Shown one piece after another: positions 2,664 through 57,945 of a DNA stretch of 64,000 bases (within the stretch, counting starts at the first letter, position 1; the number at the start of each line of letters is the position of its first letter). The position numbers and the translations under genes were made by a program. This DNA is from a virus. Taxonomy: Duplodnaviria; Caudoviricetes. Location: IMG/VR virus record IMGVR_UViG_3300014204_000002, positions 79,526 to 143,525 of that record, one strand, 5' to 3'. The notes under the pieces are model-generated. The model ran no database searches. It had not been told where the DNA came from and saw nothing but the letters and a program-made list of their open reading frames with translations.

Positions 2664-2692
2664 TGGTGATTTACAGTATATAAAAAAGAGAG

Positions 2693-14182: not shown

Positions 14183-14273
14183 TTTTATATAGGAGTAAAC
14201 ACAACTAAATGATGTCAACAACGGAAGTAACAGAAGGAAGACATAGGCAATCTTCTTTCTTTTCTTTTGTTAG
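14183..14273 (+). repeat. Dispersed promoter-hairpin element, copy 1
   Basis: TATA, then ACAACTAAATGATG (14201-14214), AACAGAAG and TTCTTTTCTTTTGTTA. Confidence 0.7.
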
Positions 14274-14362
14274 GCAAACTTTTGACGCACTCTTCTGGCC
14301 CGATTTCCAGTATATAAACATAGTTAAATGAGGCATGACGCGGCTAAGCGAGGCTTTTTAAC

Positions 14363-14371
14363 TCTGGACGA
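14363..14371 (+). promoter_or_regulatory. TCTGGACGA promoter element (also 14150-14158 minus, 19577-19585, 42846-42854, 60865-60873)
   Basis: Exact 9-mer just downstream of TATA-like boxes; 21-22 nt before the ATG in three leaderless genes. Confidence 0.7.
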
Positions 14372-14765
14372 CGACTCTTTTGTATGGCAATTTATGAGCC
14401 TTGTAAATTTTTGAGGTTGCAGGCATGTAGAGGGCGGCCTATTGACTTTACGTTTTGCACCAATTGCGAAGTTAATGAGATTATGTATAAGCAGGTGCCA
14501 AATTTTGACGATTCGTTCGATTATCATTGCCGCTTTCATGAGTTCCCGCGATCTACGGGCCTGTGTCGCTTTTTCGAGGCGCAGCGATGACGATTCATTA
14601 TCATAATTCATTTATTGTAAAGGGGCAATGGTCACAAGATCAAATTGTAAGTGGCGGCACTTCTCACAAGGATGCACGGGGTGTATTTGATGGTAATTAT
14701 ATGCGAGAGTATAACACCACTGATAGATTTACATTTGTGCATGAGTACAATGCCGGGAGTGGCGA

Positions 14766-15209
14766 GTGTTCGGTCTGGTGGTTAATGTGATTGAGATTTA
14801 TACGGACGGAGGATGTAGATTAACGCGACCTGATAAACTTGGCGCGTGGAGTTACATTATTATTGGAGACGGATTTGTTGTTGATAAGCATTCTGGTATA
14901 GAATTCGACACAACCGTCAACAGAATGGAGTACACTGGACTTATTATGGCATTACGCGCGTTAAAATGGATTAATATAACCGGGCATGAAATTAAAATCA
15001 CGTCAGATTCGCAGTTGCTTATAAATCAGGTCACTGGTAAGTGGAATGTCAATGACCCGGTGTTGCAAAACTTAAGATTCTTGGTGCTTGAGGCGGGTAG
15101 CATTTCATTGAAAGATAACCAGGTAGCGTTTATATGGAATCCGCGCGAAAGTAAATGGACGAGTGAATGTGATAAAATGTGTAACGAAGCAATGGATCAG
15201 GTGAGATAA
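14766..15209 (+). CDS. rnhA: Ribonuclease HI
   Basis: IYTDGG, TVNRMEY, ITSDSQLLINQ and CDKMCNEAMD catalytic motifs. Confidence 0.92.
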   Translation: MFGLVVNVIEIYTDGGCRLTRPDKLGAWSYIIIGDGFVVDKHSGIEFDTTVNRMEYTGLIMALRALKWINITGHEIKITSDSQLLINQVTGKWNVNDPVLQNLRFLVLEAGSISLKDNQVAFIWNPRESKWTSECDKMCNEAMDQVR

Positions 15210-15218
15210 TGAGTATAT

Positions 15219-15821
15219 GTGAGAAATGTGAGTATTATGATACGTCTGATGAGGAGGAAGAGTGGTGTAATAATTCCGGTGAGTTATTGGGCGATACGTG
15301 TGATAAAGAGGAATGCGACGATTTTCAGGAGCGCGAAAATGATTGATTATAAGAAGTTTTTAGATGAGTGTCAGTTTGGCTTCGAATTGCAGGATAATGG
15401 CAATTATTATGCTTGTATAAAGTGCGCAACCAAGAAAGAAACGATTTGGAACATGGCGCAGGTGATATCATACAATAACCACGATATGTTCAGGGAGATG
15501 TTATACCGTAAAATGGATTATTGTTATTTGTCTATTCCGGGAGAAATAAGTTTTTATGCAGGTGTTAGACCAGACTGTGATAAGTTTGCAAGACACCGCG
15601 TTGTTAGCAGCCCAGATTTAATTGAGCAGGGATACGAGGAGATGCCTGTTCATTGGTCTGGAGTAAATTGGGCCCGAAAATGGCTGTCGGTTAATGAGTA
15701 TAAGGCGCTTATAATTGACGCAATTGAGACCTCGTTAGTTGAATATGCTGACGAAATAAAGAACAAGGAGTTATACAGGGAGAAAGGCGCCGTATTCGAG
15801 GTGTGCCGCGAAAATGATTGA
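15219..15821 (+). CDS. Hypothetical protein (start probably 15339)
   Basis: Long ORF in an operon; overlaps the next gene. Confidence 0.55.
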   Translation: MRNVSIMIRLMRRKSGVIIPVSYWAIRVIKRNATIFRSAKMIDYKKFLDECQFGFELQDNGNYYACIKCATKKETIWNMAQVISYNNHDMFREMLYRKMDYCYLSIPGEISFYAGVRPDCDKFARHRVVSSPDLIEQGYEEMPVHWSGVNWARKWLSVNEYKALIIDAIETSLVEYADEIKNKELYREKGAVFEVCREND

Positions 15822-16305
15822 GATTGGGAAAACTTATATTAAGGAGCCGTATGATATCGGTGGCGAGGCATTTGTTTTTACGCCGAATAGACCTGCCGAG
15901 GTGACATATGACAGAATCGAGGAATATGGATGGGCCAATGGAGGAGTTTTTACATCTGGATTTTATTGCGATAAGTTGGTCGAGAAGGTTCATTTATGGC
16001 TTAATAAAGAGACAAACACCTGTATTGAGTTAATTGAGCGCAAAGATTATGAGGTAAATATTGGATTCTTTGGAAATGGATGGAAACTCAAGCGCGGGTA
16101 TATTGAGGGTCCAAGAAAATACACCATCAAGGTAGTGCTGCCAGAGGACTGCATTAATGACATGGTGGCTGGATATTTGCTATATTCGTGGGCATATAGA
16201 GATTCTATTTTAAATAAATATGGGTTGCCGAAAGGTACAAAGAGACAAATTTTGGAATTTATTGGTGAGAATGTCGAGTCACAGAAGACCGTTTACGAAT
16301 GTTAA
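15814..16305 (+). CDS. Hypothetical protein
   Basis: 163-aa ORF coupled to the previous gene. Confidence 0.55.
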   Translation: MIEIGKTYIKEPYDIGGEAFVFTPNRPAEVTYDRIEEYGWANGGVFTSGFYCDKLVEKVHLWLNKETNTCIELIERKDYEVNIGFFGNGWKLKRGYIEGPRKYTIKVVLPEDCINDMVAGYLLYSWAYRDSILNKYGLPKGTKRQILEFIGENVESQKTVYEC

Positions 16306-16791
16306 ATTGCAGTAGTTAACTTTATCTATTTTTACGTTTAATGTTATGTGATGATACATAACAATATTCTCGATATGGTAAGTGTTCTAAATAGGCAGTC
16401 GATCCTGGTGCTTGAGATGGTGATCAATGGAACGTGGGAAACTGCCGACTTTGATGATCTGAATTCGCTGGATGACCTTTATCAGGCAGGTTGGGTTGAT
16501 GGGATTTCTGACGGCGATTATTGCGTGTGGATCATGACTAATAAAGGCCGAAAATTGTATGATGTGCTGGGCGATTTAATCATTTAGTGTTTCGAGTATT
16601 GCGTTAAAGACCATTGATGGTTCACCCATTTTTAGTATAGGGAGTTCAAATTCTTGTTCTATTGACAGTGCCGTGAGTATTGCGACTATTTCAGAATCAG
16701 TGGATGAATCCAGATATTTAAGGTACATGGATTATATGTGTTATTTTACCCTTATTATGTGTTTGGGCGCGTTTGCTATGTTTATATATGG

Positions 16792-17067
16792 TTAATACCC
16801 GGCAGCAATGTAAGCGTCTATGATTTCTTGTGGAGGATCGAGTTTTATGCAGCGCTGTGCAAACGTATAGCCCATCATTGTTCCTATTTTGCCGTCACGA
16901 ATGCTTCTGATGCCAACTCTGTATACGAGTCTGCGATGCTCTAATTCTGATTTGAGATCGAAAATTTTGCACCAGACGAACTCGACATTGTTTCTCGATA
17001 TAAACACGGCATAGTCTCCGATGTTTAGAGGTTGACCTAAAAAGTCTCTTATTTTACGTTGTGACAT
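16792..17067 (-). CDS. Hypothetical protein (SH3/KOW-like beta protein)
   Basis: RDFLGQPLNIGDYAVF start is typical of small phage beta-barrel proteins; AGGT RBS. Confidence 0.5.
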   Translation of the reverse strand: MSQRKIRDFLGQPLNIGDYAVFISRNNVEFVWCKIFDLKSELEHRRLVYRVGIRSIRDGKIGTMMGYTFAQRCIKLDPPQEIIDAYIAAGY

Positions 17068-17280
17068 GGATTACCTGACCCGGAGTATATCGTGTAAGTC
17101 CATTCGTCTTCTGAATTGGCGCAACTGGCTTTATATGGGCAGGAAGAGCACTTTCGTTTGAAGCATGGCGGTGCATCGTTAATTGACATGCATTAACTTA
17201 TGGAAGAATAGATATTTAAAAGTTTCGAAAATGGAGGTGATCCATTTGGAGTGTTTTGGTTTTCTGTTTTGTTTTTTTTT

Positions 17281-17493
17281 TTACTGGGATGCGGCGAGGT
17301 TGATGTCTTCTGCGCGAACAGTGGACCGCTTTGCATGGACGGCAAGTTCGGTTGCTCTCTTCGCAAGATCGGTTCCAATTTCAGCAAGCTTGGTATCGAG
17401 GGCGATTGCGGCCTCTTTTGATACACGAGTTACACCGGCGTTCTTCATAAGGCGCACTACTGCGGCCATAGTAAAGGTTGTGTCGTTTGACAT
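17281..17493 (-). CDS. Archaeal histone (HMf family), 70 aa
   Basis: MSNDTTFTMAAVVRLMKNAGVTRVSKEA...LAKRATELAVHAKRSTVRAEDINLA with RVS, HAKRxTV and EDI motifs; BRE/TATA (gaaaactcttaaata) about 25 nt upstream of the ATG at 17493. Confidence 0.93.
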   Translation of the reverse strand: MSNDTTFTMAAVVRLMKNAGVTRVSKEAAIALDTKLAEIGTDLAKRATELAVHAKRSTVRAEDINLAASQ

Positions 17494-17518
17494 GATATAA
17501 TGTTGATTCGGATTGTAT

Positions 17519-17791
17519 TTAAGAGTTTTCATTTTGTTGAGTGGGTTTAGTTGACTTTTCCAATTGGAGTGCGTCGTGTTCGATGGAGCAACAGCGCTTG
17601 CTGGAGTCAGTAGTTTTGAATTGGAGCCCGCAATACTCGCAGTTGTATACGTAGGTTGGATCGTGTCTATGTTCGTTTGCGCACTGTGCCGAGCAGAAAA
17701 GCCCCTTACCGCGCTCAATGTCGCGTGGATAATACTCTCTTGTTATCTGGCAACCAGGATGCTCACACATTCGATGTAACTTTATGATCAT
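17519..17791 (-). CDS. Small Cys-rich zinc-binding protein
   Basis: CEHPGC...GKGLFCSAQC...CEYC...CCSIEH; resembles the C-terminus of 30962..31696. Confidence 0.65.
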   Translation of the reverse strand: MIIKLHRMCEHPGCQITREYYPRDIERGKGLFCSAQCANEHRHDPTYVYNCEYCGLQFKTTDSSKRCCSIEHDALQLEKSTKPTQQNENS

Positions 17792-17805
17792 GTATTGTTA
17801 TTGGC

Positions 17806-18189
17806 TTGCGAAGGTTATATAAGTTTGGACGAAGAATTATTCTATCAATGAATGATAAGCCGAGTTCGCAGGTTAAGGGCAAGTTTGTTAGCGAGACTGA
17901 TAAGGCGATTTGTATCGTGTATTGGGGCAGAAATGAGTGGTTTCCAAAGAGCCAGATAAGTGGTATTAATAAAACGGGTGAGGAGGTTACATTTGCTGCA
18001 CCGGACTGGTTGATAGCCAAGAAGCGCAAGGAGATCGTGTTTGAAGAGGCAGTTGATGCTCCTGCTCCGGTAGTGGCGCAGAATTGGGCATTTTGTGATG
18101 AATGTAAAGAGGACTCGTTTAACATTTGTAAACAGGGCGAGACTTATTTTATACAGTGTGCAAGTTGCGGGAAACAGTTGAAATTATGA
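17806..18189 (+). CDS. Hypothetical protein with C-terminal Zn ribbon
   Basis: ETDKAI...WFPKSQI motif, CDEC...CASCG; start probably 17848. Confidence 0.6.
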   Translation: MRRLYKFGRRIILSMNDKPSSQVKGKFVSETDKAICIVYWGRNEWFPKSQISGINKTGEEVTFAAPDWLIAKKRKEIVFEEAVDAPAPVVAQNWAFCDECKEDSFNICKQGETYFIQCASCGKQLKL

Positions 18190-18494
18190 TTAGAAATATT
18201 CCGTATGAGTATACAGTGGATCGTTATAAGACGAAAGGGATGTGGGCGTATCGATGCGCGGATGAGATCGGCGAGCAATTGGATGATTTGAAGGAAATGC
18301 TGAAAATTCACGAAAGAAAAGGCGAGTGGGTAAACTTTGATGAATTGGAATTGTTGCCAGAGATGATTGCTGATTTGATCTTGGCACTGGATTTGTATTG
18401 TTATTCAGATGGCGTTACTGGCACATGTGTTAATCGTGTTATTGATAGGCGAATTGCTGGTGACGATAGCAAGTATAAGAGGTGTGGCTTTTGA
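18156..18494 (+). CDS. MazG-like NTP pyrophosphohydrolase (divergent)
   Basis: DEIGE...EMIADL acidic helical motifs. Confidence 0.4.
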   Translation: MCKLRETVEIMIRNIPYEYTVDRYKTKGMWAYRCADEIGEQLDDLKEMLKIHERKGEWVNFDELELLPEMIADLILALDLYCYSDGVTGTCVNRVIDRRIAGDDSKYKRCGF

Positions 18495-18885
18495 GGAATG
18501 GTGAGTAAGATGCCAGTAGTCACATTTATCTGCGTCAAATGCGGGTATAAGCATCGGTGTGAGGCGAAAACATATGATGATTCGTTTTCTGGAGTGCCAG
18601 AAAAACCAATGTGCTTTCAAGGATTAATTGATGAAAATGGGGACGATAAATCAGAATTTGAGTATATTACTTGTAATTTGGATGAGATTTAATGGCTCGT
18701 CGTAGGAAGGTGTCGGTGCAGTTTGCGTGGGATATTTGGTGCGTTGGAGCGTTTTGGTTTGGAATTAAAAGTGATCCGATTAAGAGGTTGCATATCTTTC
18801 CAATGCCATTTGTTGTAATTGTGGTTGAGTGGATAGAAGAGTAAACTTTTCTTGAGTTAGATCAATTTATACATTTTTGTGATTA

Positions 18886-19115
18886 TTTTCGCTTTGAGAA
18901 CAGCCCCTTATTATATATTTTACAGTTATTTTCGCTCTGAGATTTTATAACTGTGTAACGGGTTTGGATTGTTGGTTTTGTGGTGTCTGCGTTGTTTGTT
19001 CAGAGCGAAAGTCAGAGCGAAAACACCAACTTTTTCGACGCGAGATTTGTGTAGACGTTTTGGTGGTCTGGATTTGCGTTTGGAGGCCGTAGAGCGATTA
19101 GAATTTTCACTCTGA
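18886..19115. repeat. Iteron-like cluster TTTTC(G/A)CT(C/T)TGA
   Basis: Copies at 18886, 18929 and 19104 (+) and at 19000 and 19012 (-) in non-coding DNA. Confidence 0.65.
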
Positions 19116-19152
19116 AATTTTGTGGTTGATTTGCTAGAAAAGTAAAGTGAGT

Positions 19153-19347
19153 TTAGTTAACTGCCGCTGTACAGATGAGGCAGGTAGTCATCTCTTTGCC
19201 GTTTAATTCAAATTTGGACTGCGAGACGTGGTGGACTTCCTCAAATGCGTCACCATCATCGAGATCGATATACATCATTTCGACTTCGTGATCGCCATCT
19301 TCGTCCATGTACTGCTGTAATACGGTGATTAATTCGCTACATTTCAT
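19153..19347 (-). CDS. Hypothetical protein
   Basis: MKCSELITVLQ...GDHEV, a common small phage protein pattern; AGGT RBS. Confidence 0.55.
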   Translation of the reverse strand: MKCSELITVLQQYMDEDGDHEVEMMYIDLDDGDAFEEVHHVSQSKFELNGKEMTTCLICTAAVN

Positions 19348-19375
19348 AATTTGACCTTCAGGAAAGTGTTAGACC

Positions 19376-19450
19376 TCTATAACAAAAGAAGAAAAGAAGA
19401 CTCTTCTCTTGTTGGGGTGCATCATTTAGTTGCGTTGATAAATATTTATA
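19376..19450 (-). repeat. Dispersed promoter-hairpin element, copy 2
   Basis: Minus strand: TATAAATA, then CAACTAAATGATGCACC, AACAAGAGAAG and TTCTTTTGTTATAGA. Confidence 0.7.
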
Positions 19451-31696: not shown

Positions 31697-32039
31697 TATA
31701 ACAAGAGAAGAAAGAAAAGACAGCAATAAGATAATTATTGACGATCCATCATTACTTGACGAGGATAGTGTTTTGCCTATCGGTGCTGGTGGATGGACTA
31801 TGGTTTATAAAGTATCTAAATCAGAAGTAGGCGATAAGATAACCTACACTATATTTACAAAGGTAAAACGTAAAATGGTTGCGCGATCTTTTCTATATAC
31901 AAAACGTCAATTAGAACACATGACACAAGAGCCTATATTTTTAGGCAATAATAGGGGAGATATTCGTATTTATGTCTTTTATAATGCAGCGTTACATAGT
32001 CATAGCACAACTCACTATGCGTACAATTTTCTAAAATAA
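31689..32039 (+). CDS. Hypothetical protein
   Basis: Coupled to the previous ORF. Confidence 0.55.
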   Translation: MDDITREERKDSNKIIIDDPSLLDEDSVLPIGAGGWTMVYKVSKSEVGDKITYTIFTKVKRKMVARSFLYTKRQLEHMTQEPIFLGNNRGDIRIYVFYNAALHSHSTTHYAYNFLK

Positions 32040-32095
32040 ATTATACATATTTTCCAATATGAAAACCGACCCCCTTTATGTTTTTTTATCTATAT

Positions 32096-32319
32096 TTTTC
32101 GTTCTGACAAATTTTTAAAAAATTAGAGTATTATTTATCTCTTAAATACAAAAATAACTTCTATAATCCATTATTTTCATAACGAAACCCATCAAATATT
32201 TTCGTTCTGACATTTTAATACACAAATTAAAAGAGCCACATACCACCAACTAAATTAAAAGATAACTTCAATACTCCCTTATTTCAAAGCGAAAACCAAA
32301 ATAGTAACTTTCACTCTGA
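32096..32319. repeat. Second iteron-like cluster TTTTC(G/A)(T/C)T(C/T)TGA
   Basis: Copies at 32096, 32199 and 32308 (+) and at 32284 (-); same motif as the 18.9-kb cluster. Confidence 0.6.
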
Positions 32320-32811
32320 CATTTGAAAGAGCGCGAAGACCATGTAAAATTATTAGGAGGTGCCGCATACAAAAACGAAGGAGAATCACTAAAAGAGCAT
32401 ATGGTTAGGTCGGTCTGGTAAGGATATTTTGGAATTTTCTTCCATGTTGTAAGGTTGATCTTTATAGTATATAAACTTATGCACATTTTCTCCAAAAATA
32501 CATACCTTTAAATACTTAATCATTAATCCTGTTAGTAAATTCGATCATGATCATAAATTCATAACACGATTAATTATCTAATATATAAAGATAACTCACC
32601 TCCTTAAACAAGGCATTAAAAGAAAAACAACTCAATTAAAAACGTCTAAAATTTGCAATCCAAATCTTTATATAGTAGATATTTAATCCTATTAGAACGA
32701 AAAATAGCATCAAAATTTTCTAACAGGATTAAGCCTCTAATATATAAGTCTATCCATGGGTCACAAACAAGAGCGTAAAAGTAAAACAAACCTCGTATAT
32801 CATCTCAATTT

Positions 32812-33195
32812 TTGACCAATACATTTATATACTCAAAATATAAACCTATTAGAATGAATCGAAAATGTAGATCGTGTCTGGAAGAAAAGGATGAATCAAA
32901 GTTTTACAAATACAATTTAAAGCACGATAAGAACCCAATATGTAAAGAATGTGTGAGAAAATACCAAAACGATTATTATTGCCGTAAAAAGTTGGGTCTA
33001 ATAGCAAAGGAATATCTTAACCCATATACCAATAACAATCAAATATGGTGTGATTGTTGCAACATAGCGAAAGATAAAACCCAATTCTTGAAATCAGATA
33101 TCAACATATCGTTATTTGTCTGTAAAGAATGTAAAGCAATAATTAAACGAGATCAGATAAACAATCTAATACTTGATCACTTCGATGAATCATAA
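32812..33195 (+). CDS. Zn-finger protein (start probably 32854)
   Basis: Two CxxC...F...CKEC repeats, like those N-terminal to HNH/EndoVII nucleases. Confidence 0.6.
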   Translation: MTNTFIYSKYKPIRMNRKCRSCLEEKDESKFYKYNLKHDKNPICKECVRKYQNDYYCRKKLGLIAKEYLNPYTNNNQIWCDCCNIAKDKTQFLKSDINISLFVCKECKAIIKRDQINNLILDHFDES

Positions 33196-33387
33196 GATAA
33201 TCTATCAATATCATATTACGCGATATGCAAAATTCCACTATCTTTTACATCAATTTATAAATGCTCAATATCATACTGACGAATTATCCGAAGAGTATAA
33301 ATATCTGGACGATCAATCATTATTCATGCAAGGGATGACACCTCACAAGAGGGATGAAACCTTGCTAAAGAACGAATGCTAAATATC

Positions 33388-33655
33388 TCTACGGTTTGAA
33401 TGCTCCTTGGTTCCTTCAATAAAGCCAAGTCAAATCGGGGTGTAAATTTCTCTTCGTGAAATTCACGTAAGAAGGATTTAAACTGAAGTAAGCCCTGTTA
33501 TCATTGTGAATAACAGAAATGTAGGACGCAAGTTTATAGATGAGCCATGTAATGTGATCATGAGAAGTTCAGGATATCAAAACAGAGTATGAAGCATTAC
33601 ATGAGAACAACTATTACAACTGGTTAGAGGGTTCGCGTATCCCGAAAACCAGTAT
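33388..33655 (+). ncRNA. Candidate structured non-coding RNA
   Basis: Intergenic, with many helices (cggtttga/tcaaatcg, cttggtt/agccaag, cgtgaa/ttcacg, ctgttat/ataacag, catgtaatg/cattacatg, actggtt/aaccagt); strand inferred from G-U pairs. Confidence 0.45.
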
Positions 33656-33699
33656 CTGGAAACCGCCATTAAGAATCTAACAGGAGAAATGAAACAAAA

Positions 33700-34035
33700 A
33701 TGAGATCAAAAAGAGAACGACTTGAAATGAACGATAACATGATGACCATTGTACACAAGATGAGTGAGGGAAATCCTGGTGCAGTGTCAGTAATGTCTCT
33801 AATCATAGCCCGAGATCAAACAACTGCATTCATGACGTTACTGGATCTTGATGATATGAACATCCGGGGATCCCAAATCTGGATCGGTTACAAAGATCAT
33901 TGCCACGAAGATCTTAACAAGTTTACAGAACTGGTCAACGCAAGAGATCAGGCACTCGTATCATGCATCAATAAGGAATCAGCCCGAGAAGGAATAACTG
34001 AACGCTGTGTAACTCACGGAGCAAGTTTCAAGTAA
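33700..34035 (+). CDS. Hypothetical phage protein (MSEGNPGA motif)
   Basis: KMSEGNPGA...LDDMNIRGSQIW pattern; GGAG RBS. Confidence 0.65.
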   Translation: MRSKRERLEMNDNMMTIVHKMSEGNPGAVSVMSLIIARDQTTAFMTLLDLDDMNIRGSQIWIGYKDHCHEDLNKFTELVNARDQALVSCINKESAREGITERCVTHGASFK

Positions 34036-34059
34036 AGCATACAGGAGCAATGATAAACA

Positions 34060-35016
34060 ATGACAAAATTTAACCATGCATATCACAATGAAAATGACCT
34101 TGTAGCGTTTGATGATTTCGCAGATCAGATCCAAGGTATGCCAAGAGCGATTATTAAGCCCCTCTACTTCAATGAACAGATAATCAATGAAGACACCGGA
34201 TTGTCAGAGTTGAAGCCCTCACGTTTTAATGCGGTGCTATCAGAAGACGAAACTGTTCAGTATAACGCAGTAACCAAAAATTACAAGCTTGCCCAGCATT
34301 CCGATGTAATGTACCAGGTGCTTAACACAATTCAGGCAACCGGAATAGACGGTAACGCACGTTTGAAGTCGTTCGGGAGCCGGGCATACATGGATATGGT
34401 TTTCTCAAATATGCAGATCGCAGATCCTACCGGTACTGATATCTCACTCGGTTACACGGTGCGAAACAGTTACGATTCTACCGGCGCAATTAACCTCTTT
34501 CCCTTCGCAATCAGAAGAATTTGCTCAAATGGGCAGATTATGAGACTTACACCCGATCTTCACTTGAATGTTATCAGCATCAAGCACATGGGAGACATCG
34601 AGTTAAAGGTCAGAGAAGGCATGAAAACACTCATCGAGAACACCATGCGAGTTCAGAATGTCTTTGTTACCATGATTGATCGGGCAAACAACAACGTCAT
34701 TGAATTCCAAGGCAATGAACTTGAGTTAACCATGGCCGAATATTCAGGCTCAAGATTTAGCGCCCGTAAGATCATCGACAGTAGCAAACTTCCCCTATCA
34801 GGCGAGATCAGTCAGTGGCAAATTGTTAACGCCATGACTCAATACGCCTCATGGAATGCATCATCCGGGTCTTCCTACGAACGCATTGAAACAGGAGCCG
34901 AAAAGATGTTCAACCTCAAACCTGATGAATTGAACAGCATCAAGAAGGCAGCCATTGAAGCAGAAGAAAAACGCCTTGCAAAACAGGTACTTGTCACTGC
35001 ACCACTAACCATTTAA
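34060..35016 (+). CDS. DUF932/DUF945-family phage/plasmid protein
   Basis: VTKNYKLAQH, RNSYDSTG...RRICSNG and WQIVNAMTQYA motifs. Confidence 0.8.
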   Translation: MTKFNHAYHNENDLVAFDDFADQIQGMPRAIIKPLYFNEQIINEDTGLSELKPSRFNAVLSEDETVQYNAVTKNYKLAQHSDVMYQVLNTIQATGIDGNARLKSFGSRAYMDMVFSNMQIADPTGTDISLGYTVRNSYDSTGAINLFPFAIRRICSNGQIMRLTPDLHLNVISIKHMGDIELKVREGMKTLIENTMRVQNVFVTMIDRANNNVIEFQGNELELTMAEYSGSRFSARKIIDSSKLPLSGEISQWQIVNAMTQYASWNASSGSSYERIETGAEKMFNLKPDELNSIKKAAIEAEEKRLAKQVLVTAPLTI

Positions 35017-35969
35017 CCCATTTTTGCAGGTGAAGTATCAACAGGAGACGATAACTAAAATGATGATCGGTAAACAAATCAAAACAACGAAGCAGAATAG
35101 CCGAAGATACCAAAACATGGCATGGCGAAACAGAGATCATAATCTAACAATTTTGAAGTAGTGTTAAATGAGTTATCAATACTATGACTAAAACTTTTGT
35201 TGCTGAAATTTGCTTTATTAGCAACGACAAGAACGATTCAGAAGCACGATCACGATTGTATCGAATTATTAACAATCCAGAAAACAATCTGGTTAGTGCA
35301 TCAATTGAAGATCTCTACGAAATTGAAAACGAGTAAACAAAATGACAAAATTCAATGAAGAAGCAAGCAAAACCTTCTACTATGACGAAAAGCCATCTCT
35401 TCAAATTAAAGGTGACTACATTTACGCTTTTAACGAACTTGGAACCAGAGCATTGAGCATCGCAGAAATAGAGGCTCACATCCTCCACTCAGGTGATATC
35501 ATCGAGGATTAAACAATGGTACACTATTCACAAGAGCCTCATTTGTGTCCTTGGTGCAAGGCAGGTGACTTTAAACCTGTACCAAATGAACAGAAGATCG
35601 TCCAAGGCATAGTATATCAAATCTGGAAATGTGACAACCTAACATGTAAGTATACCACAATGGCACGAGAACATGTACTACAACAGCATTAAGACTAATT
35701 TCAAGTGGCTACCCATGTCTTCACGATTGATGCAAATGTCAATTCAGGCCATGGTAAATCACAATCACCTACGCCACATACATCAGTATGGCAACGTCTA
35801 TGAAATAACATTCATAAACATCAAATCAGAACAACTCTACACCTGCTACATAAAACATTGTGGCAACGAATTAACAAGGTATCTAATCAACCGACCACAA
35901 TTCCGGGTAATTGAAAGTAATCTCATCACGAACATCGCAAACAAATACGATAACAACCAGTGATATAAA

Positions 35970-36530
35970 ATGAGAACTATTACAAAAGAAGAATTACAGG
36001 AAATTATAAAACTGCATAAACTGTACTTTATAGGAAATCCTACTGGAGTACGTGCATATCTAAGTAATGCAGATCTAAGATATGCAGATCTAAGATATGC
36101 AAATCTAAGTAATGCATATCTAAGTAATGCAGATCTAAGATATGCAGATCTAAGATATGTAAAAAATATTTCCAATTACGTAGAAAGCACGACTTCTATT
36201 CTTCCAGAGGGTACAATTATAGGATATAAGAAGGCGTGTATTAAAAATTCTAATAAGAGGTGCATAGTAAAAATTAAGATCCCGGATTATGCTACAAGAA
36301 GTAATGCTACTGGTCGCAAATGTCGATGTAATGAATGTATGGTGCTTGACATAACAGGCATAGATTGCAATATCCAAGATAGGGATATCATAGTATCATC
36401 ACATGATCATGATTTCATATATAAGATCGGAGAAACACTCAAAATAGATGATTTCGATCTAAACAGATGGGATGAATGTAGCACAGGGATACACTTCTTT
36501 ATAACTAAAAAAGAGGCTCTTGACTATTAA
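35970..36530 (+). CDS. Pentapeptide-repeat protein with DUF5758-like C-terminus
   Basis: A(D/N/Y)LxY/N repeats (15-nt DNA repeats at 36053-36160), then IGYKKA...RKCRC...ECSTGIHFF. Confidence 0.85.
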   Translation: MRTITKEELQEIIKLHKLYFIGNPTGVRAYLSNADLRYADLRYANLSNAYLSNADLRYADLRYVKNISNYVESTTSILPEGTIIGYKKACIKNSNKRCIVKIKIPDYATRSNATGRKCRCNECMVLDITGIDCNIQDRDIIVSSHDHDFIYKIGETLKIDDFDLNRWDECSTGIHFFITKKEALDY

Positions 36531-37009
36531 ATTTTTAAAGGAGATTTCAAAAGTGAAACTAACCAACAGAGAACAAATAGTCTACGATGACATTATTGCC
36601 CTATCAGAGTTAACCGACGATCAGACCGTAAAGATTGCTCACATATCGGTCCTTACATCAATTAAGGGAAGAACTCTTTCAGGCATCATCAGTTCCCTCC
36701 AGAGACGAAATTTAATTAGTACAGATGGCACTATCATTAAATTAACACAGGTGATACAAAATGAAATTTGAACCAGATCACGATAAAAAGATCAGCATAA
36801 CCTTGATCAATAAGAGACTGAACTTCTACGCACAACCTGAATATGACATAAAAATTCGGGTAAAAATAAATGGCACAAATGAAGTAAAGGCCATAACGTT
36901 GCCAGATTATGTTACCAAGACGCCTAAATTCAGAGCAACAACAGAAGCCGCAAACCTGATAACAAACATCGAATCCAAAACCCGCCTCATGCTCCGAAGA
37001 TGATAAATC

Positions 37010-37339
37010 ATGACATCAATAAAACTTAATCCTATTCCCGATGATTACTTTGAACACTGTAAACAAAAATATGGAGAAGGTACACAATATGTCATCTTAC
37101 ATGAAGAATTATCCGAGTTATCAATTGCATGTAATGAACTCCAAAAACTTACATGTAAAATTATCAGAGGATTAGAAGATAAAAGAAATACAGCAACAGA
37201 TGTAGGAAATGCAGTTGATCATATTTATGAAGAAATTGCAGATGTGAGAATCATGCTTGAGCAATTTATTTATACAAAGCAGATAGAGTTCTACATCAAT
37301 GACTACACAAAACAAAAACTCGCAAGAGAAGGTTTTTAA
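37010..37339 (+). CDS. MazG-like NTP pyrophosphohydrolase
   Basis: EELSEL...EEIADVRIMLEQ. Confidence 0.7.
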   Translation: MTSIKLNPIPDDYFEHCKQKYGEGTQYVILHEELSELSIACNELQKLTCKIIRGLEDKRNTATDVGNAVDHIYEEIADVRIMLEQFIYTKQIEFYINDYTKQKLAREGF

Positions 37340-37342
37340 ATT

Positions 37343-37783
37343 ATGACTAACGATTTAGAATGGATGGATGTCATTGCAGGAGGACTGGTTGCATTATTAA
37401 TAATATTTCTAATCGCTTGCATAGCGGCATTCATAGCATGGGTAACACCAGTAGAGACCATAGAAATCACCGATCCTAATATCCAAATGAAGAACATCTA
37501 CAAAACTTATACCGATAGATTTGGCAGGCACGAAAGTTTCACCGACACCTATTTCATTGAAGATATAACAACACATCGAGTATTCAAAACAATAGATCTT
37601 CACAAAGCAAACAAACTCCGATCAGGCACTCACTCAATCGAAATAAACATACATGATGAGATATTACAAGTATACAACGTACCTGAAAAAATCTTGACAC
37701 TCAACTTAACAAATCATATCAAAGTATCATTCAACTTTGACAGACTACGATTTAAGTGGAACATCTATGGAGCAACGATCTAA
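37343..37783 (+). CDS. Membrane-anchored hypothetical protein
   Basis: N-terminal transmembrane helix. Confidence 0.55.
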   Translation: MTNDLEWMDVIAGGLVALLIIFLIACIAAFIAWVTPVETIEITDPNIQMKNIYKTYTDRFGRHESFTDTYFIEDITTHRVFKTIDLHKANKLRSGTHSIEINIHDEILQVYNVPEKILTLNLTNHIKVSFNFDRLRFKWNIYGATI

Positions 37784-38454
37784 TGAAACTACACAGAGCA
37801 GAAAACGTATTGAAACTATTTGCAACCGGAAAAATCGAGAAAGTAAATTATGAGTATGAGTATCGTGATTGTAGTTGTCATTTAAGACAGTGGTTTAGAA
37901 ACATCTACACATTTACTCAAATCAATGGTCCGGTATCACTAACTCACACGTATTGCAATCGCAAAATCAAACTGAAACTCGAAGAAGAGGAGAATCCAGA
38001 TTGTAAGTTTTACGATGTTGAATATATGATGTTCAACGATTACGGCGATGATAACTTCGATCCAGAATCCGAATTCTACAAGAGAGTATTTGATTACAAT
38101 GGAGTTGGAATACCTGCCACAATCATCATTGATCAAGACTGCAAACTGTATATTGCATCTATTTACAAACTGAAAACAGATTATGGCTACACACTGGACT
38201 TGCAATACTTCTGTGATATTCCGAAAAACATCTACGATAAAATCTGGAATGGTGAAATAAATCACAAACGGCCATATCAGATTGTAATCAACAATTATCA
38301 CATCACAGGATTTCTAACGAACTACATTGGATTCAGAGATCTACATAAAAGCATAGAAATAAAAATTAGAAACCAAGACAACGAATACTATGTGTTTACA
38401 GTAGAAGGATATCGATATACAGAATTGACACGAAATGACGCGAGATTAACATGA
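37756..38454 (+). CDS. Hypothetical protein (start probably 37783)
   Basis: Long ORF in an operon. Confidence 0.55.
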   Translation: MEHLWSNDLMKLHRAENVLKLFATGKIEKVNYEYEYRDCSCHLRQWFRNIYTFTQINGPVSLTHTYCNRKIKLKLEEEENPDCKFYDVEYMMFNDYGDDNFDPESEFYKRVFDYNGVGIPATIIIDQDCKLYIASIYKLKTDYGYTLDLQYFCDIPKNIYDKIWNGEINHKRPYQIVINNYHITGFLTNYIGFRDLHKSIEIKIRNQDNEYYVFTVEGYRYTELTRNDARLT

Positions 38455-38585
38455 CCGAAGTAACACATGATCGACTTGTACCAAGATTGTATCTCATTAG
38501 AGGTCTTCCCGGTGTAACTAAGTTGCTTGGATCAGGAATAAATATTAATAAAACAATGTATATATGTGATAGGAAAAGATTCTAA
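38451..38585 (+). pseudogene. N-terminal remnant of a P-loop kinase gene
   Basis: MTEVTHDRLVPRLYLIRGLPG(VTKLL)GSG...* duplicates the start of 39612 (PRLYLIRGLVGSGKT). Confidence 0.7.
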
Positions 38586-39615
38586 TTTATTAATGTTTAA
38601 TGGATCAATTAAACAGATTTGCGATATTAAAACAGGTGATGTATTAATGGGAATAAATAACAATCCTGCAATAGTTAGATATAATATATTAACAAGTGCG
38701 GAAATGTATAAAATTAGTCCCGTTAAAGGAGATCCATTCAATTTGTCAATATCACATTGTTTATACGGGAAAAGAAAAGTTAGCATAATTGAAAGAGACA
38801 TATTTTTAAATCTAAAGACATATTTAGAGTCAGATAGAATGGCATTTAAAGAGCGATTAAAACTATGTAGATCTACTGCTGTAGAATTTAACACCAATGA
38901 TACTTTATTAATTGAGCCATATTTTCTTGGAATATGGCTTGGTGATGGGGATTCTAGTTCTCAAAAAATTACAAACCCAGACAATGAAATTATTGAATAC
39001 CTAACATATTATGCGAGTTCTATGCATATGAAAATTGCAAATTACACACCATTAAAAACAGCATCTGCATTATGCATTAGCAATGGCAAAATAGGAACTC
39101 CATTTAATAACAGTCTGTTAAATAATATGCGATATTATAATCTTATTAATAATAAGCACATACCAGATTGTTATTTACTATCATCAATTGAAAATAGATT
39201 AATGTTATTGGCAGGATTATTAGATTCTGACGGCCATCTACATGCCAACGGAGGATATGAAATCACATTTAAATCGAAGCATTTAATGAATCAAACAAGG
39301 TTTTTAATAAAATCTCTTGGGATAGCAGCCTACACATCTGATAAAATTGCAACCTGTCAAACAGCAAATGGAAAGTTCAAGGGATTGTATTATAGAACAT
39401 CTATATCAGGAAACCTTGATGTTATTCCATGTAAAGTCAAGCGAAAACAAGCACAAGAAAGAAACCAAGTCAAAAACGTTTTAAGAACGGGATTTTCAGT
39501 AGATAAAATTGGATATGATAATTGCTATAATATTATGGTTGATAATAACTTTATCATACTTGATAATTTCACGATAATATGCGACTCTTCAATAATAGGA
39601 GACTGTATTATATGA
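38566..39615 (+). CDS. Intein-derived (Hint + LAGLIDADG) free-standing homing endonuclease
   Basis: Intein-like ends (LMFNGSIKQICDIKTGDVLMG; LRTGFSVDKIG...YNIMVD...DNFTII) and PYFLGIWLGDG/LLAGLLDSDG, but no Cys1 and no terminal His-Asn. Confidence 0.85.
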   Translation: MIGKDSNLLMFNGSIKQICDIKTGDVLMGINNNPAIVRYNILTSAEMYKISPVKGDPFNLSISHCLYGKRKVSIIERDIFLNLKTYLESDRMAFKERLKLCRSTAVEFNTNDTLLIEPYFLGIWLGDGDSSSQKITNPDNEIIEYLTYYASSMHMKIANYTPLKTASALCISNGKIGTPFNNSLLNNMRYYNLINNKHIPDCYLLSSIENRLMLLAGLLDSDGHLHANGGYEITFKSKHLMNQTRFLIKSLGIAAYTSDKIATCQTANGKFKGLYYRTSISGNLDVIPCKVKRKQAQERNQVKNVLRTGFSVDKIGYDNCYNIMVDNNFIILDNFTIICDSSIIGDCII

Positions 39616-40424
39616 CAGTAAGAAATTCACCAAGATTATATTTAATCAGGGGTTTAGTAGGATCTGGAAAAACAACGTATGCAAACACATTAGGTTGTAT
39701 TACAATTGCGCCATCTGATATGATGAGTTATAGAGGAGGTCAGTATAATTGGATAAAAACTAATTATATGATATCAAAAATCCATTTTAGAAAAATAGTA
39801 AGAGATCTCATGGCTCTGCAAATTGATATTTGTATAACCGAACTCTTATTAGAAAAAAGATTTATCGATTTTTGGCTAAAAGAAGCAAAAGACAATTATT
39901 ATGAAGTGCGCATTGGTACCCTATTGACCGATCTTAACACAAGCAAATCTCGAAACATTCATAATGTAAATAAAACGTCTATTGCAGAAATTCACGAGCA
40001 AATGGACTATGGTATTCCAGATCAAATAATTGATTATAGCGAAGGAGAGTGGGATAAATCAAGCACAAACAAATTTAGGTCTCCTAATTTTGTTCCTAAT
40101 GAGGAGAATCATTATGGGCTATCATCAAATGATATAATTGGTAACGAGATTAAAAAATTGATATCTGATAACCAACTGGAAAAAGCAATTCAACTGCATA
40201 TCGATATGAGTAATTATTTAGGAGCAAATGTGACAACCGACAAATCTGTTGCGCAAATCGTAGTAATCAACGACGAAACGTACATAAATAAAAGTTCATT
40301 GCTTCGGATCATGGCACACTTTAAGACTGCCATCAAAGAAGCAAATGAAACGGCACCAGAAAAACGCAAGATTATCGTCTACACTCTTGAATCAGTAGAA
40401 GACATAATCAAGAAAGTTAATTAG
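39612..40424 (+). CDS. P-loop kinase (AAA_33/PNK-like)
   Basis: LYLIRGLVGSGKTT and RNIHNV; ATGA overlap with the endonuclease gene; the C-terminal ~65 aa may be a fused separate gene. Confidence 0.75.
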   Translation: MTVRNSPRLYLIRGLVGSGKTTYANTLGCITIAPSDMMSYRGGQYNWIKTNYMISKIHFRKIVRDLMALQIDICITELLLEKRFIDFWLKEAKDNYYEVRIGTLLTDLNTSKSRNIHNVNKTSIAEIHEQMDYGIPDQIIDYSEGEWDKSSTNKFRSPNFVPNEENHYGLSSNDIIGNEIKKLISDNQLEKAIQLHIDMSNYLGANVTTDKSVAQIVVINDETYINKSSLLRIMAHFKTAIKEANETAPEKRKIIVYTLESVEDIIKKVN

Positions 40425-40441
40425 AGGAGACAGCAAACACC

Positions 40442-40741
40442 ATGACATACATTGTCGTTATTGGAGATCCAGCATCAGGCAAGACTCATTTAGTGCAACA
40501 ATTAATGAGCCAGTCTGACAAACTTTACGAAGACATTCAATCAGCACAAGACATACAAAAAATAATTAGGTATCATGAAGGTAACAATGAACTCATTAGA
40601 TGGCTCATTATAGACACCACAAAACCAGATTACAAAAATGGCCTCATAGACATAGAGATTGGAAACTTGCCCGGCAAAGTAGCAATTTTGAACATTATCA
40701 AACCTTGCATGAGGAATCAATGTTACCAAAGAACGTATTAG
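40442..40741 (+). CDS. Small P-loop protein
   Basis: IVVIGDPASGKT; GGAG RBS. Confidence 0.55.
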   Translation: MTYIVVIGDPASGKTHLVQQLMSQSDKLYEDIQSAQDIQKIIRYHEGNNELIRWLIIDTTKPDYKNGLIDIEIGNLPGKVAILNIIKPCMRNQCYQRTY

Positions 40742-42108
40742 AAAAAATGCATCGATTAGAAGCGGCAGGTCATGAGTGTTACATTGTAGGAGGTGCTGCA
40801 CTTTATAATTTCGCATATCTGAACATGGGCCTCACAAACTACAAACAGGAACCAAAAGATTATGATTTATTCACTAATTGCCCATCAAATGAACTATTAG
40901 AGATATTTCCAGAAGCAAAACCAATGGGAGGTCAGGATCGACTAAACAAAATCTTCACTGTCATTACACCCGATCAAGTAGAGATTAGCATCTATCGAGG
41001 CAATGGCGAAAGAACCGAAACAGGCAAGACAATCTTTGATCACCAATCCACATGTGATTTTAGCATGAATGCGATTGCTATGAGTTCCAAAGGTGAATTC
41101 ATCCTCCCACCTGATGTAATTAATCACCTAAAACAACAAAGACTCGTAGCAATGGGCAATCCCGAAGATCGCATAGCCGAAGATCCTAACAGAATTTTAA
41201 GGGCCTTTAGAATTGCAACAAAGTACGACCTGACCATTGAAAATAGTTTATATTGGGTATTACTAACCACATCAATTGCCTCAATCCCGAAGGAAGTGAT
41301 CCACGATGAACTATTAAAGATCCTACCTCTTGGAATAGATCAACTTTATATATCTGGTAAACTATTCGAGATATTTCCACGGCTAAAAGAAATGGAAAAC
41401 ATTACAGGGCGAGGTATACACCATGAGGAAACTTGTTTGGAACACACTCTTGAAACTTATCGACAGATGCTACACCACACCACTGATCCGATATTGCTCT
41501 TCACAGCGATTGTACATGATTGGGGAAAAGTCACCGCATACGATCCAGACACCAAAAAGTTTACCGGACACGAAAACATTGGAGCCAAAGAAGTAAAAGC
41601 CTTAATGCAGGATCTCAAATTCAGCAATCACGACATAAAGCGTGTAGTGTGGCTCGTTAAAAATCACATGAAATGCCGCAATGACGACGATTGCACGAAA
41701 CGCTCACGAAGCAAATGGTACAAATTCCTAAATAGAATGGAAGATGCCGGAGTCTCAATCAGCGATCACCTAACCCTGAAATACTGTGACTCAAGAAGCA
41801 GAATGGTAACCGGCTACTGGGTGCATGAACAGAGCCTAACAACGCTTGAAACCTTCACCGATCAGGACATAACCGCACAATGGTATAACCGGTATATCGG
41901 TGAACATTTCCCGCAAAGACTAAAATATATCGATGTATCAGGAACCGATCTTATAATGCTCGGAATACCAAAAGGACCACTGATCGGTGAAGTGCTCTCA
42001 AAACTTTACATAATGGTTCTTGCAGCCGAACTCCCCAATGAAAAAGAAGCCCTAATAAACCAAGTAGCAAAATGGCAGGAGGCCAAATCAAACATCTTCT
42101 TAAATTAA
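40720..42108 (+). CDS. cca: Class II CCA-adding enzyme/tRNA nucleotidyltransferase with HD domain
   Basis: YIVGG...PKDYDL, CDFSMNAIA, EDPNRILRAFR, HDWGK, FTGHE and GPLIGEVL; true start at ATG 40720. Confidence 0.88.
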   Translation: MLPKNVLEKMHRLEAAGHECYIVGGAALYNFAYLNMGLTNYKQEPKDYDLFTNCPSNELLEIFPEAKPMGGQDRLNKIFTVITPDQVEISIYRGNGERTETGKTIFDHQSTCDFSMNAIAMSSKGEFILPPDVINHLKQQRLVAMGNPEDRIAEDPNRILRAFRIATKYDLTIENSLYWVLLTTSIASIPKEVIHDELLKILPLGIDQLYISGKLFEIFPRLKEMENITGRGIHHEETCLEHTLETYRQMLHHTTDPILLFTAIVHDWGKVTAYDPDTKKFTGHENIGAKEVKALMQDLKFSNHDIKRVVWLVKNHMKCRNDDDCTKRSRSKWYKFLNRMEDAGVSISDHLTLKYCDSRSRMVTGYWVHEQSLTTLETFTDQDITAQWYNRYIGEHFPQRLKYIDVSGTDLIMLGIPKGPLIGEVLSKLYIMVLAAELPNEKEALINQVAKWQEAKSNIFLN

Positions 42109-42564
42109 TAAATTAATCATTAGACATTAACAAAACCTTTATTTGCTCTTAAAATCAATAAAAGTTAAGTGAGTGACACACTGGAGAATCAAAGCATGAA
42201 AGTAGGCTCAATACAATGTCAAGGGATCATTACTCTTGACGGAGAACTGATACTTCCACCAAAAGGATCCGTCCTTGAAGTGGGAGGCATAGAGATTGCA
42301 AACATAACCGAGATCGTCATAAACTTCGTTGTTCACACGAAAGAATCAGATACCACATGGATTCAGAAAGGCCATCACCGCAACATTGTAATCTCCCACG
42401 ATGACATGATACGCAAAGCCCGCAGCGCAATACGAAACACAAAGCGCTTCAACTTTTGGGTCAGCAACAACACGCTAAACATCAAGGATCACCGTCTTGG
42501 CCCGTACAAAAATCTGATCGGCCACATCAACGGCAGAGTATAACAACAGAGTATAAACAAAACA

Positions 42565-42658
42565 TTTAAGTATTAACACACACAACTAAATGATGCACCT
42601 TACTAACAGAAGAACTTTCAACAGAAAGACTAACCACCTTTCTTTCTTTTGTTATAGA
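42565..42658 (+). repeat. Dispersed promoter-hairpin element, copy 3
   Basis: TTTAAGTA, then ACAACTAAATGATGCACC, AACAGAAG and TTCTTTTGTTATAGA. Confidence 0.7.
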
Positions 42659-42879
42659 CGCTAAAATTCGCACCGTTGAACGCACTTTTCTTGAAACGAC
42701 AACGCGTCTAAATGAACCGGCCTCCAATTCTGAACGTGCAGCGGGGCGGCATTTGTGTTTGCGCGTCGTGGCCCGGATGTAAAACGGCACGCATTTATAT
42801 TAGCGATTCGTCCGGTTTTCGACGTGACTTCAGAAGGTTTAAGTATCTGGACGACAACATTATAATACAGAGGTGACAT

Positions 42880-43158
42880 ATGACAAACTATGTCCAGTTG
42901 ATGAAGCAAGATCGACTGGAATCAGAAATTGCAGAAACGAGGTCGAAGATTCGCGAGTTGGGCGACGCTGCCGACGCGATTATTGGCGATCTCGGCAAAT
43001 TAGTGGGGAATGATGATGCAGACAATGTTCTGTATACAGTGAGTGAAATAGGCAAGGCTCTGGCGCCATTGAGCAAAATTGCGCTGGAAATGGAAGAATT
43101 GGAGAACTCGATCCCTGGATGCGGCATTGAGGCGTATGATGTTGCAGGCGACAGGTAG
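42880..43158 (+). CDS. Hypothetical coiled-coil protein
   Basis: GAGGTG RBS; TATA plus TCTGGACGA promoter. Confidence 0.6.
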   Translation: MTNYVQLMKQDRLESEIAETRSKIRELGDAADAIIGDLGKLVGNDDADNVLYTVSEIGKALAPLSKIALEMEELENSIPGCGIEAYDVAGDR

Positions 43159-43192
43159 CGTAATTTGGTAAATTTTACATGGATGAAACAAC

Positions 43193-43678
43193 ATGGCAAG
43201 AAACACCGCACAAACAATCGAAAAATCGCCCGCTGCTACAAGGGCACGACGAACGACCACCCGAAAATTAGAACAGGCTCCGCGCTCGAATAGAGGACGC
43301 AAGGCCGAGGCAATTAAGGAATTCATACCGCCGACTACGACCGCAAAGCGCTACCGAACACGAAAAGATTACGTTGGCGAGGGCTGGAAGGCTACTGTCG
43401 ATGAGGCAAAACCATCATTGAGCAAGCGGGTCGCGGCAAAATTCGAGGCTACCGAAACCGCCATTAAGGCAAAGGAGGCCGTTAAACAGGAGAAGCCGGA
43501 ATCGCCACAGTTAACGATCACGAATGAACTATCTGGCCCAACTGATCAGACGCTCGCGTATAATATTGCCGAAATGTGCAACAAGTACGTCTTTCTGATG
43601 AAGGACATCTTTGGCGGGCAGGGCGGTATCGCAGAAATAGACATTCACATAAAGGTAAAGCCCGTGAGCGTATCATGA
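43193..43678 (+). CDS. Basic Ala/Thr/Arg/Lys-rich protein (possible nucleoid protein)
   Basis: Low-complexity basic N-terminal half. Confidence 0.55.
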   Translation: MARNTAQTIEKSPAATRARRTTTRKLEQAPRSNRGRKAEAIKEFIPPTTTAKRYRTRKDYVGEGWKATVDEAKPSLSKRVAAKFEATETAIKAKEAVKQEKPESPQLTITNELSGPTDQTLAYNIAEMCNKYVFLMKDIFGGQGGIAEIDIHIKVKPVSVS

Positions 43679-43814
43679 GAAAGCCCATAGACATGACACG
43701 AGTAATCATCGGTATAAGTTTCATCCTGATTGGGGTTGCGGCAATAGCGTTCCAATGGTGAAGTGAGACAGTAAACTGAAAGTGGTCCGTGGCACGATAA
43801 AAGACGGCTAGCCC

Positions 43815-43890
43815 TCTATAACAAAAAAGAAAGAAGAACTTTCTCTTCTGTTAGGTTGGCATCATTTAGTTGTGTCTACAACCTTATAAA
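43815..43890 (-). repeat. Dispersed promoter-hairpin element, copy 4
   Basis: Minus strand: TTTATAAG, then ACAACTAAATGATGCC, AACAGAAG and TTTTTTGTTATAGA. Confidence 0.7.
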
Positions 43891-57944: not shown

Positions 57945-57945
57945 T

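What the first reader, a model, noticed from the sequence alone, without database searches (positions are those of the whole stretch)
14183..43890. Four promoter-hairpin elements arranged as two inward-facing pairs at the C-rich to G-rich skew switches
Seen: four copies (14183+, 19450-, 42565+, 43890-) share a TATA box that starts 17-18 nt before CAACTAAATGATG. A few variable nucleotides follow, then AACA(G)AAG, a variable loop and (T)TCTTTTGTTA(TAGA), which can pair with the AACAGAAG arm. The ATG ATG does not open a conserved peptide (4, 18, 24 and 40 codons). The copies form convergent pairs enclosing 14.2-19.4 kb and 42.6-43.9 kb. To the right of each pair the + strand is visibly G-rich and to the left C-rich, most clearly at 43 kb where genes on both sides are on +. 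Inference: a family of ~50-70-nt RNAs, possibly transcription-primed bidirectional replication origins. T4 and ColE1 use R-loop priming, and an RNase H gene lies inside the first pair. Alternatives are trans-acting sRNAs or inversion sites.
Basis: partly seen in the sequence, partly recalled or inferred. Interest (0 to 1): 0.8.

Follow-up and report, generated by a model that had tools for sequence, protein, structure and literature searches.

The report
Mini-RNA replication starts in archaeal virus
A large archaeal virus with no detectable primer-making enzyme carries ten tiny promoter-plus-hairpin units at the places where its DNA strand bias jumps, suggesting it lets the host's RNA polymerase make short RNA primers to start copying each strand at many sites.

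Summary
The four elements are real, but they are 4 of 10 copies in a 143.4-kb circular-mapping archaeal tailed virus (PolB, MCM-like helicase, RNase H, no primase found). Each has a TATA box 27 nt before an invariant initiator G, a 9-12 nt leader and a purine/pyrimidine hairpin with G-U pairs, often with a short U-run after it. Homologous elements, mostly at matching positions, occur in four related viruses, with different sequence but kept pairing. Synonymous-site G+T skew steps upward at most elements and decays downstream. A sawtooth built only from element positions and orientations predicts the genome's skew (r 0.60-0.75; 0 of 1,500-3,000 random placements). The top steps in two relatives also fall on their elements. 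'Pairs' are not the unit: the 14.2-kb switch lies at the left copy, and 19.4 kb shows no step. Best reading (0.62): transcription-primed, mainly one-directional replication starts, working like T4 oriF/oriG but as a homologous mini-RNA family. No RNA or replication data exist. Other readers noted the copies, and one the origin idea, on this same genome; the scan's look-ups found nothing on other DNA.

The parts
14184..14282 (+). Element a: TATA 14184-14189, predicted start G 14211, hairpin 14220-14271, U-run at about 14279. Strong upward skew step here.
   Evidence: step z 5.6-7.8, cumulative minimum 14249; orthologs in L119 and relative B
19365..19450 (-). Element b: TATA 19450-19445, start G 19423, hairpin 19413-19381, followed by a 64-codon ORF (19347-19153). 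No skew step. Relative B has a back-to-back (-/+) pair in the same region.
42565..42690 (+). Element c: TATA 42565-42570, start G 42592, extended hairpin 42604-42654.
   Evidence: GC-skew minimum 42729; ortholog B 95985+
43800..43890 (-). Element d: TATA 43890-43885, start G 43863, hairpin 43853-43819, U-run about 16 nt further. Points at the 20-kb A/C-rich domain.
   Evidence: keto minimum 43838; dropping it costs the most fit in two of three settings; ortholog B 99917-
22650..23800 (.). Tract of periodic palindrome and tandem arrays (16-, 20-, 21-, 60-nt periods) at the cumulative keto-skew maximum; inferred end-point of synthesis (genome end or fork trap).
   Evidence: relatives B and C also flip negative at or just after a non-coding tract here
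14766..15209 (+). RNase H gene, candidate primer-processing or primer-removing enzyme.
   Evidence: Pfam PF00075 E 2e-10; kept in relatives
14300..22600 (+). G/T-rich domain downstream of element a (synonymous residual +0.27).
23800..42500 (-). Domain G/T-rich on the minus strand, downstream of element d and antisense to the genes there (plus-strand residual mostly -0.1 to -0.3).

Best explanation
The elements are a family of transcription-primed replication start sites.

Shown: each is an archaeal-type promoter plus a short hairpin unit, and most mark an upward, downstream-directed step in strand mutation bias.

Inferred mechanism: (1) Host RNA polymerase starts at the invariant G and makes an RNA of about 55-80 nt. 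(2) The hairpin folds behind the enzyme, and it pauses or stops in the U-run 6-16 nt past the stem. (3) The RNA 3' end stays on the template as a short R-loop, possibly trimmed by the viral RNase H. (4) Viral PolB extends it while the MCM-like helicase unwinds, leaving the non-template strand single-stranded, where deamination makes it G/T-rich. (5) Plus copies start plus-strand synthesis rightward and minus copies start minus-strand synthesis leftward. Synthesis stops or is cut at the 23-kb repeat tract. Whether the displaced strand is copied only from oppositely oriented elements or by host primase is open.
For: Promoter geometry: invariant G with a pyrimidine at -1 in 21 of 21 copies, and an A/T-rich TATA consensus at -27..-22 (weak or missing in three or four copies of relatives).

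Hairpin under selection on the transcribed strand: cognate arms pair better than swapped arms (-11.5 vs -7.2 kcal/mol, 0 of 20,000 permutations); 46 G-U pairs have G on the 5' arm; this strand is the more stable in 18 of 21.

Skew in this genome: mean step 0.177 at elements vs -0.016 at 24 other TATA promoters (p 0.0007). Sawtooth r 0.60 outside 14.2-43.9 kb, reached by 0 of 3,000 random placements and by no circular shift; r 0.71-0.76 genome-wide with a break at the repeat tract. Downstream term 0.142+-0.032, upstream 0.013+-0.027.

Relatives: in B the four highest step peaks lie 0.2-1.7 kb from its elements, including a flip where downstream genes are antisense. In C the four highest peaks lie within 0.4 kb of its four elements (p 0.0001).

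Three copies (d, G000 57312, 77172) point antisense into genes yet give steps reaching up to 14-20 kb. The genome has PolB and an MCM fold; no primase was found, although 98% of polymerase-encoding dsDNA viruses have one (PMC4889955).
Against: There is no RNA, R-loop or nascent-strand data. Two copies (19432-, G000 22152-) show no step, and flipping or dropping 19432- improves the fit. The 46843- orthologs in L131 and L132 show no step within 2.5 kb. The oriented model beats a bidirectional one only modestly (0.75 vs 0.74 genome-wide; 0.60 vs 0.56 outside), and the true orientation ranks only in the top 2-7% of 1,024. The reading assumes the exposed strand becomes G/T-rich. The relatives share ancestry, and C's candidates were picked with its skew table in view. 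A divergent primase, or the host's, may be used.
Confidence: 0.62

Rival explanations
1. Strong promoters whose hairpin makes RNA polymerase resist termination (put/nut-like). Long sense and antisense transcripts then cause the skew by transcription-associated mutation.
For: It predicts the same sign and the same downstream direction. Seven of ten copies point into same-strand genes.
Against: Three copies, and several in relatives, point antisense and still give steps over up to 14-20 kb. The 24 other promoters give none, and virion genes' coding strands range only from -0.14 to +0.11. Raw GC skew reaches 0.5-0.6.
Confidence: 0.15
2. Mirror reading: the leading strand is A/C-rich (as I recall for budding yeast; not checked here). 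The 23-kb repeat tract is then an iteron-like origin and the elements are transcription-dependent polar fork barriers.
For: The tract looks like an iteron array and carries the sharpest switch in the genome (z -11 to -15).
Against: A polar barrier should give its purest bias upstream, but the data put it downstream. The slopes between elements would need dispersed initiation. Both C and A are depleted on the same strand, which fits deamination of exposed DNA.
Confidence: 0.1
3. Trans-acting small RNAs (protein decoys or antisense regulators) whose link to skew is incidental.
For: They are compact promoter-hairpin-U-run units with C/A-rich single-stranded leaders.
Against: It cannot explain local, orientation-dependent steps in three genomes, or why position is kept while sequence drifts.
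Confidence: 0.06
4. DNA-level signals: hairpins on displaced single-stranded DNA recognised by a primase or nicking enzyme, or recombination and inversion sites.
For: G-T pairs are also tolerated in DNA hairpins. The element at the tail-chaperone junction points opposite ways in L119 and this genome.
Against: Fixed TATA-to-initiator spacing argues for transcription. The all-flipped model expected of complementary-strand signals fits worst (0.46-0.67). No tyrosine or serine recombinase was found, and copies share only about 16 identical nt.
Confidence: 0.07

Closest known systems
Phage T4 origins oriF/oriG (PMC3016281)
   Same: [quoted passage not shown]
   Different: T4 origins share little sequence, use a MotA/sigma70 promoter and an A+T-rich unwinding element, and T4 has a primase. 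Here there are ten homologous units, an archaeal TATA promoter, a selected RNA hairpin, an MCM-like helicase and no primase found.
Yeast mitochondrial ori/rep elements and mammalian OriH (PMC8555793, PMC4412123)
   Same: A dispersed homologous family (eight in yeast) in which a promoter makes a non-coding RNA proposed as primer; some copies are inactive.
   Different: Those use a phage-type RNA polymerase, an RNA of about 300 nt in yeast, and a G-rich block that stabilises the hybrid. Here there is no G-run, a 55-80 nt hairpin RNA and the multisubunit archaeal polymerase.
ColE1 RNA II origin (PMC4412123)
   Same: A folded transcript whose 3' part stays hybridised and is cut by RNase H.
   Different: ColE1 has a single origin, a roughly 550-nt RNA and an antisense RNA I control (own knowledge); none of these is seen here.
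Archaeal box C/D guide RNAs and intrinsic terminators
   Same: An AUGAUG-like word near the 5' end; a hairpin followed by a U-run.
   Different: No complete C box, no D box, and the word is absent from many copies. Each unit has its own promoter and usually does not follow a same-strand gene.

Membership tests
R-loop-primed origin (T4 oriF/oriG type) | Promoter directly upstream of the start site | tested here: met
   Invariant YG in 21 of 21 copies, TATA consensus at -27..-22; sequence only
R-loop-primed origin (T4 oriF/oriG type) | Position at an upward shift in strand bias | tested here: met
   8 of 10 copies positive, p 0.0007 against other promoters; relatives
R-loop-primed origin (T4 oriF/oriG type) | One-directional leading-strand priming | tested here: inconclusive
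   Downstream term significant, upstream not at 15-kb decay, but the bidirectional model is close
R-loop-primed origin (T4 oriF/oriG type) | [quoted passage not shown] | not tested
   Only a short U-run after the hairpin was noted; unwinding energy was not computed
R-loop-primed origin (T4 oriF/oriG type) | Persistent RNA-DNA hybrid, RNA joined to nascent DNA, autonomous plasmid replication | not testable with these tools
   No RNA run listed; no cultured host
R-loop-primed origin (T4 oriF/oriG type) | Viral RNase H, polymerase and helicase | tested here: met
Mitochondrial ori/rep or OriH | G-rich block that stabilises the hybrid | tested here: not met
   No G-run in 21 aligned copies
Box C/D sRNA | C box RUGAUGA and D box CUGA | tested here: not met
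   Copies read AUGAUGC/U or GUACC, with no conserved CUGA; no Rfam hit
Any Rfam 15 family | Score above the gathering threshold | tested here: not met
   Only two tRNAs in the window; best E 5-7 around copies c and d
Site-specific inversion system | Recombinase gene and both orientations in the population | tested here: not met
   PF00589 and PF00239 absent; one contig spans a and b without a well-supported joint (contigs only, weak)
Leader-peptide attenuator | Conserved upstream peptide and a downstream same-strand operon | tested here: not met
   4-40 codons, unrelated; no ATG in GTACC copies; three copies face antisense genes

The most novel reading that the evidence does not exclude
A primase-free replication system. 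Both strands of a 143-kb archaeal virus are made only as leading strands, from about ten virus-encoded hairpin primer RNAs transcribed by the host polymerase. PolB and MCM displace the other strand until an oppositely oriented element copies it, and this leaves the sawtooth deamination signature.
Probability: 0.35. Interest if true: 0.92.

Novelty: new variant of a known kind. Interest (0 to 1): 0.78.

Why it matters
My searches found no report of transcript-primed origins in an archaeal virus (open-access library only). If right, this gives a defined 100-bp module in which archaeal RNA polymerase hands an RNA primer to a viral PolB. That makes R-loop priming in archaea testable in vitro, and offers a mechanism for the few polymerase-encoding viruses that lack a primase (phiKZ-like phages, HGTV-1; PMC4889955). 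It also shows that synonymous-site skew can map several replication starts in an uncultured virus.

Tried and rejected
DNA pattern scans of IMG/VR gave only chance matches. The metagenome scan with RuvB returned only distant homologues at 29-43% identity. The GTDB scan gave one 13-kb contig in a bacterial MAG, with no element detected. No cultured phage matches the capsid or helicase. No RNA holder was listed; this is not evidence on expression. Laid contigs show flat depth and cannot reveal genome ends or terminal repeats at 23 kb. MAFFT plus RNAalifold gave no consensus because the stems differ in length, so I used the swapped-arm test instead. A single-sequence fold of the helicase failed; the alignment-based one worked. 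A weak 'primase/helicase' PHROG hit (E 0.024) proved to be an ERCC4 nuclease. The primase search was by profile only, the alignment scans list just 25 families each, and virion proteins were not scanned. Rejected: two bidirectional origins at pair midpoints, C/D sRNA, leader peptides, inversion switch. A hairpin at G000 68614+ lacks the promoter and was not counted. The host was not identified beyond 'archaeal'.
Full report
Context. The window is G000:79526-143525 of a 143.5-kb virus record with a 124-bp end overlap. It encodes terminase and portal, PolB with an intein and ribonucleotide reductase, ligase, RuvB and RNase H. A 466-aa AAA+ protein has a model whose best PDB matches are all MCM helicases. 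TATA promoters, the MCM fold and an archaeal histone in relative B point to an archaeal host. The DNA occurs in landfill and groundwater metagenomes. A methanogen host is my guess and was not tested. No cultured phage matches.

Observation. The four copies, their hairpins (z -2.7 to -4.3) and the short frames are as described. They are 4 of 10: G000 15022+, 22152-, 30437+, 46843-, 57312+, 77172+, 93727+, 98957-, 122108+ and 123397-. Copies 22152- and 57312+ were leads from note e1-5686785, which I checked.

Anatomy. Across 21 copies from this virus and relatives, the TATA consensus lies at -27 to -22 from an invariant G preceded by a pyrimidine. It is weak or missing in three or four copies of relatives. 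Then come a leader of mostly 9-12 nt, an 11-20 bp stem with a purine-rich 5' arm and a U-rich 3' arm, and a run of three or more U 6-16 nt past the stem in 19 of 21. Pairing is selected beyond base composition: each 5' arm pairs better with its own 3' arm than with others (-11.5 vs -7.2 kcal/mol, 0 of 20,000 permutations; the arms were cut using each copy's own fold, which favours this result somewhat). G-U pairs favour the transcribed strand. Rfam has nothing similar.

Conservation. Orthologs keep place and direction in relatives. Element a is in L119 and relative B; 30437+, 46843- and 57312+ are in L131, and 46843- is in L132; b, c and d are in B. In B the c/d pair spans 3.9 kb rather than 1.3 kb, and b has a plus-strand partner 155 nt away. 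Relative C (capsid 57% identical) has four clear copies, all plus-strand, and a possible fifth at 25.1 kb. The tail-junction copy points the other way in L119, and the 46843 site holds a plus copy in C. So single elements, not pairs, are the unit.

Skew in this genome. I removed coding effects by using third-position residuals given the amino acid. Cumulative minima fall inside elements at window 14249 and 43838 and at G000 46811; the maximum is at 23604. Steps average 0.177 at elements and -0.016 at 24 other TATA promoters. I then predicted skew as the distance to the next minus copy on the right minus the distance from the last plus copy on the left, which is the time one parental strand waits single-stranded. 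This gives r 0.60 outside 14.2-43.9 kb, unmatched by 3,000 random placements or any circular shift. With a break at the repeat tract it gives r 0.71-0.76 genome-wide; that break was chosen from the data. The effect is downstream (0.142+-0.032) rather than upstream (0.013+-0.027) at 15-kb decay, though both terms are significant at 3 kb. Copies 19432- and 22152- give no step.

Skew in relatives. In B the four highest step peaks of an unbiased scan lie 0.2-1.7 kb from its five elements. At the ortholog of a, skew flips from -0.16 to +0.14 although the next genes are antisense. In C the top four peaks lie within 0.4 kb of its four elements; that selection was not blind. The 46843- orthologs in L131 and L132 show no step.

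Mechanism. Shown: promoter anatomy, selected hairpin, positional conservation, and skew steps tied to the elements. Inferred: a short transcript pauses after the hairpin, keeps its 3' end on the template and primes PolB behind the MCM-like helicase, while the non-template strand stays exposed and deaminates. Profile searches found no primase, whereas 98% of polymerase-encoding dsDNA viruses have one (PMC4889955). This permits, but does not prove, that both strands are made as leading strands. The 22.65-23.8 kb tract of periodic palindromes is where both strong domains end, so I read it as a genome end or fork trap; contigs could not test this. Odds: primed replication starts 0.62, antitermination with transcription-driven skew 0.15, mirror model with the origin at 23 kb 0.10, DNA-level signal 0.07, trans-acting RNA 0.06.

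Comparison. It works like T4 oriF/oriG, where a promoter in about 100 bp makes an R-loop that primes one direction, RNase H likely trims it, and origins sit at bias shifts (PMC3016281). It resembles the eight yeast mitochondrial ori elements as a dispersed family (PMC8555793). It is not shown to be a member of either: the persistent hybrid and autonomous replication were untestable, and the mitochondrial G-block is missing. It fails the tests for C/D RNA, attenuator and inversion system.

Verdict. A real, conserved, undescribed element family with strong indirect evidence for a role in starting replication and no direct evidence. New variant of a known kind; interest 0.78.

Noticed in passing
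window 22650-23800: Back-to-back periodic palindrome arrays at the skew maximum. Relative B has an A+T-rich tract with a 14-nt period and repeated TATATAAA boxes at its own maximum (about 76.2 kb), with unrelated sequence.
   Followed up: partly
window 14152 (-), 19583 (+), 33310 (+), 42852 (+); G000 5507, 56873: A second promoter class in which the TATA-like box is followed directly by TCTGGACGA; a possible binding site for a viral transcription factor.
   Followed up: partly
L119:16600-17919: The element at the tail-chaperone/tape-measure junction and its downstream flank are inverted relative to G000 77172+, next to a TnpB gene 79% identical to G000 18317-19504.
   Followed up: partly
L174:1330-1645: Back-to-back minus and plus elements in relative B, with a jump in raw keto skew from 0.07 to 0.27-0.36. 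This genome has only the minus copy yet stays G/T-rich, suggesting recent loss of the plus copy.
   Followed up: partly
L170:112-318: Relative B encodes a 68-aa archaeal histone. Its contig is filed at NCBI in a Dehalococcoidales MAG, probably a mis-bin.
   Followed up: no
window 47970-51030: Cytidylyltransferase-like and NAMPT-like genes; with an ADP-ribosylglycohydrolase at G000 20-820 this looks like an NAD reconstitution anti-defence set.
   Followed up: no
window 40600-42108; G000 17219-18109: A tRNA nucleotidyltransferase/HD protein and an RNA ligase (a relative has RtcB): tRNA repair functions beside two tRNA genes at 57873-58017.
   Followed up: no
window 42655-42840 and 14300-14330: Further hairpins and conserved non-coding blocks just downstream of elements c and a; the block after a is kept in L119.
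   Followed up: no
window 6878-8017: TnpB-like ORF (identified by eye from its N-terminus and by similarity to the L119 gene's family) inserted antisense in the head module.
   Followed up: no
L182:5015-5160 (G002 25015-25160): Possible fifth, diverged element in relative C at the fifth-highest skew step.
   Followed up: partly
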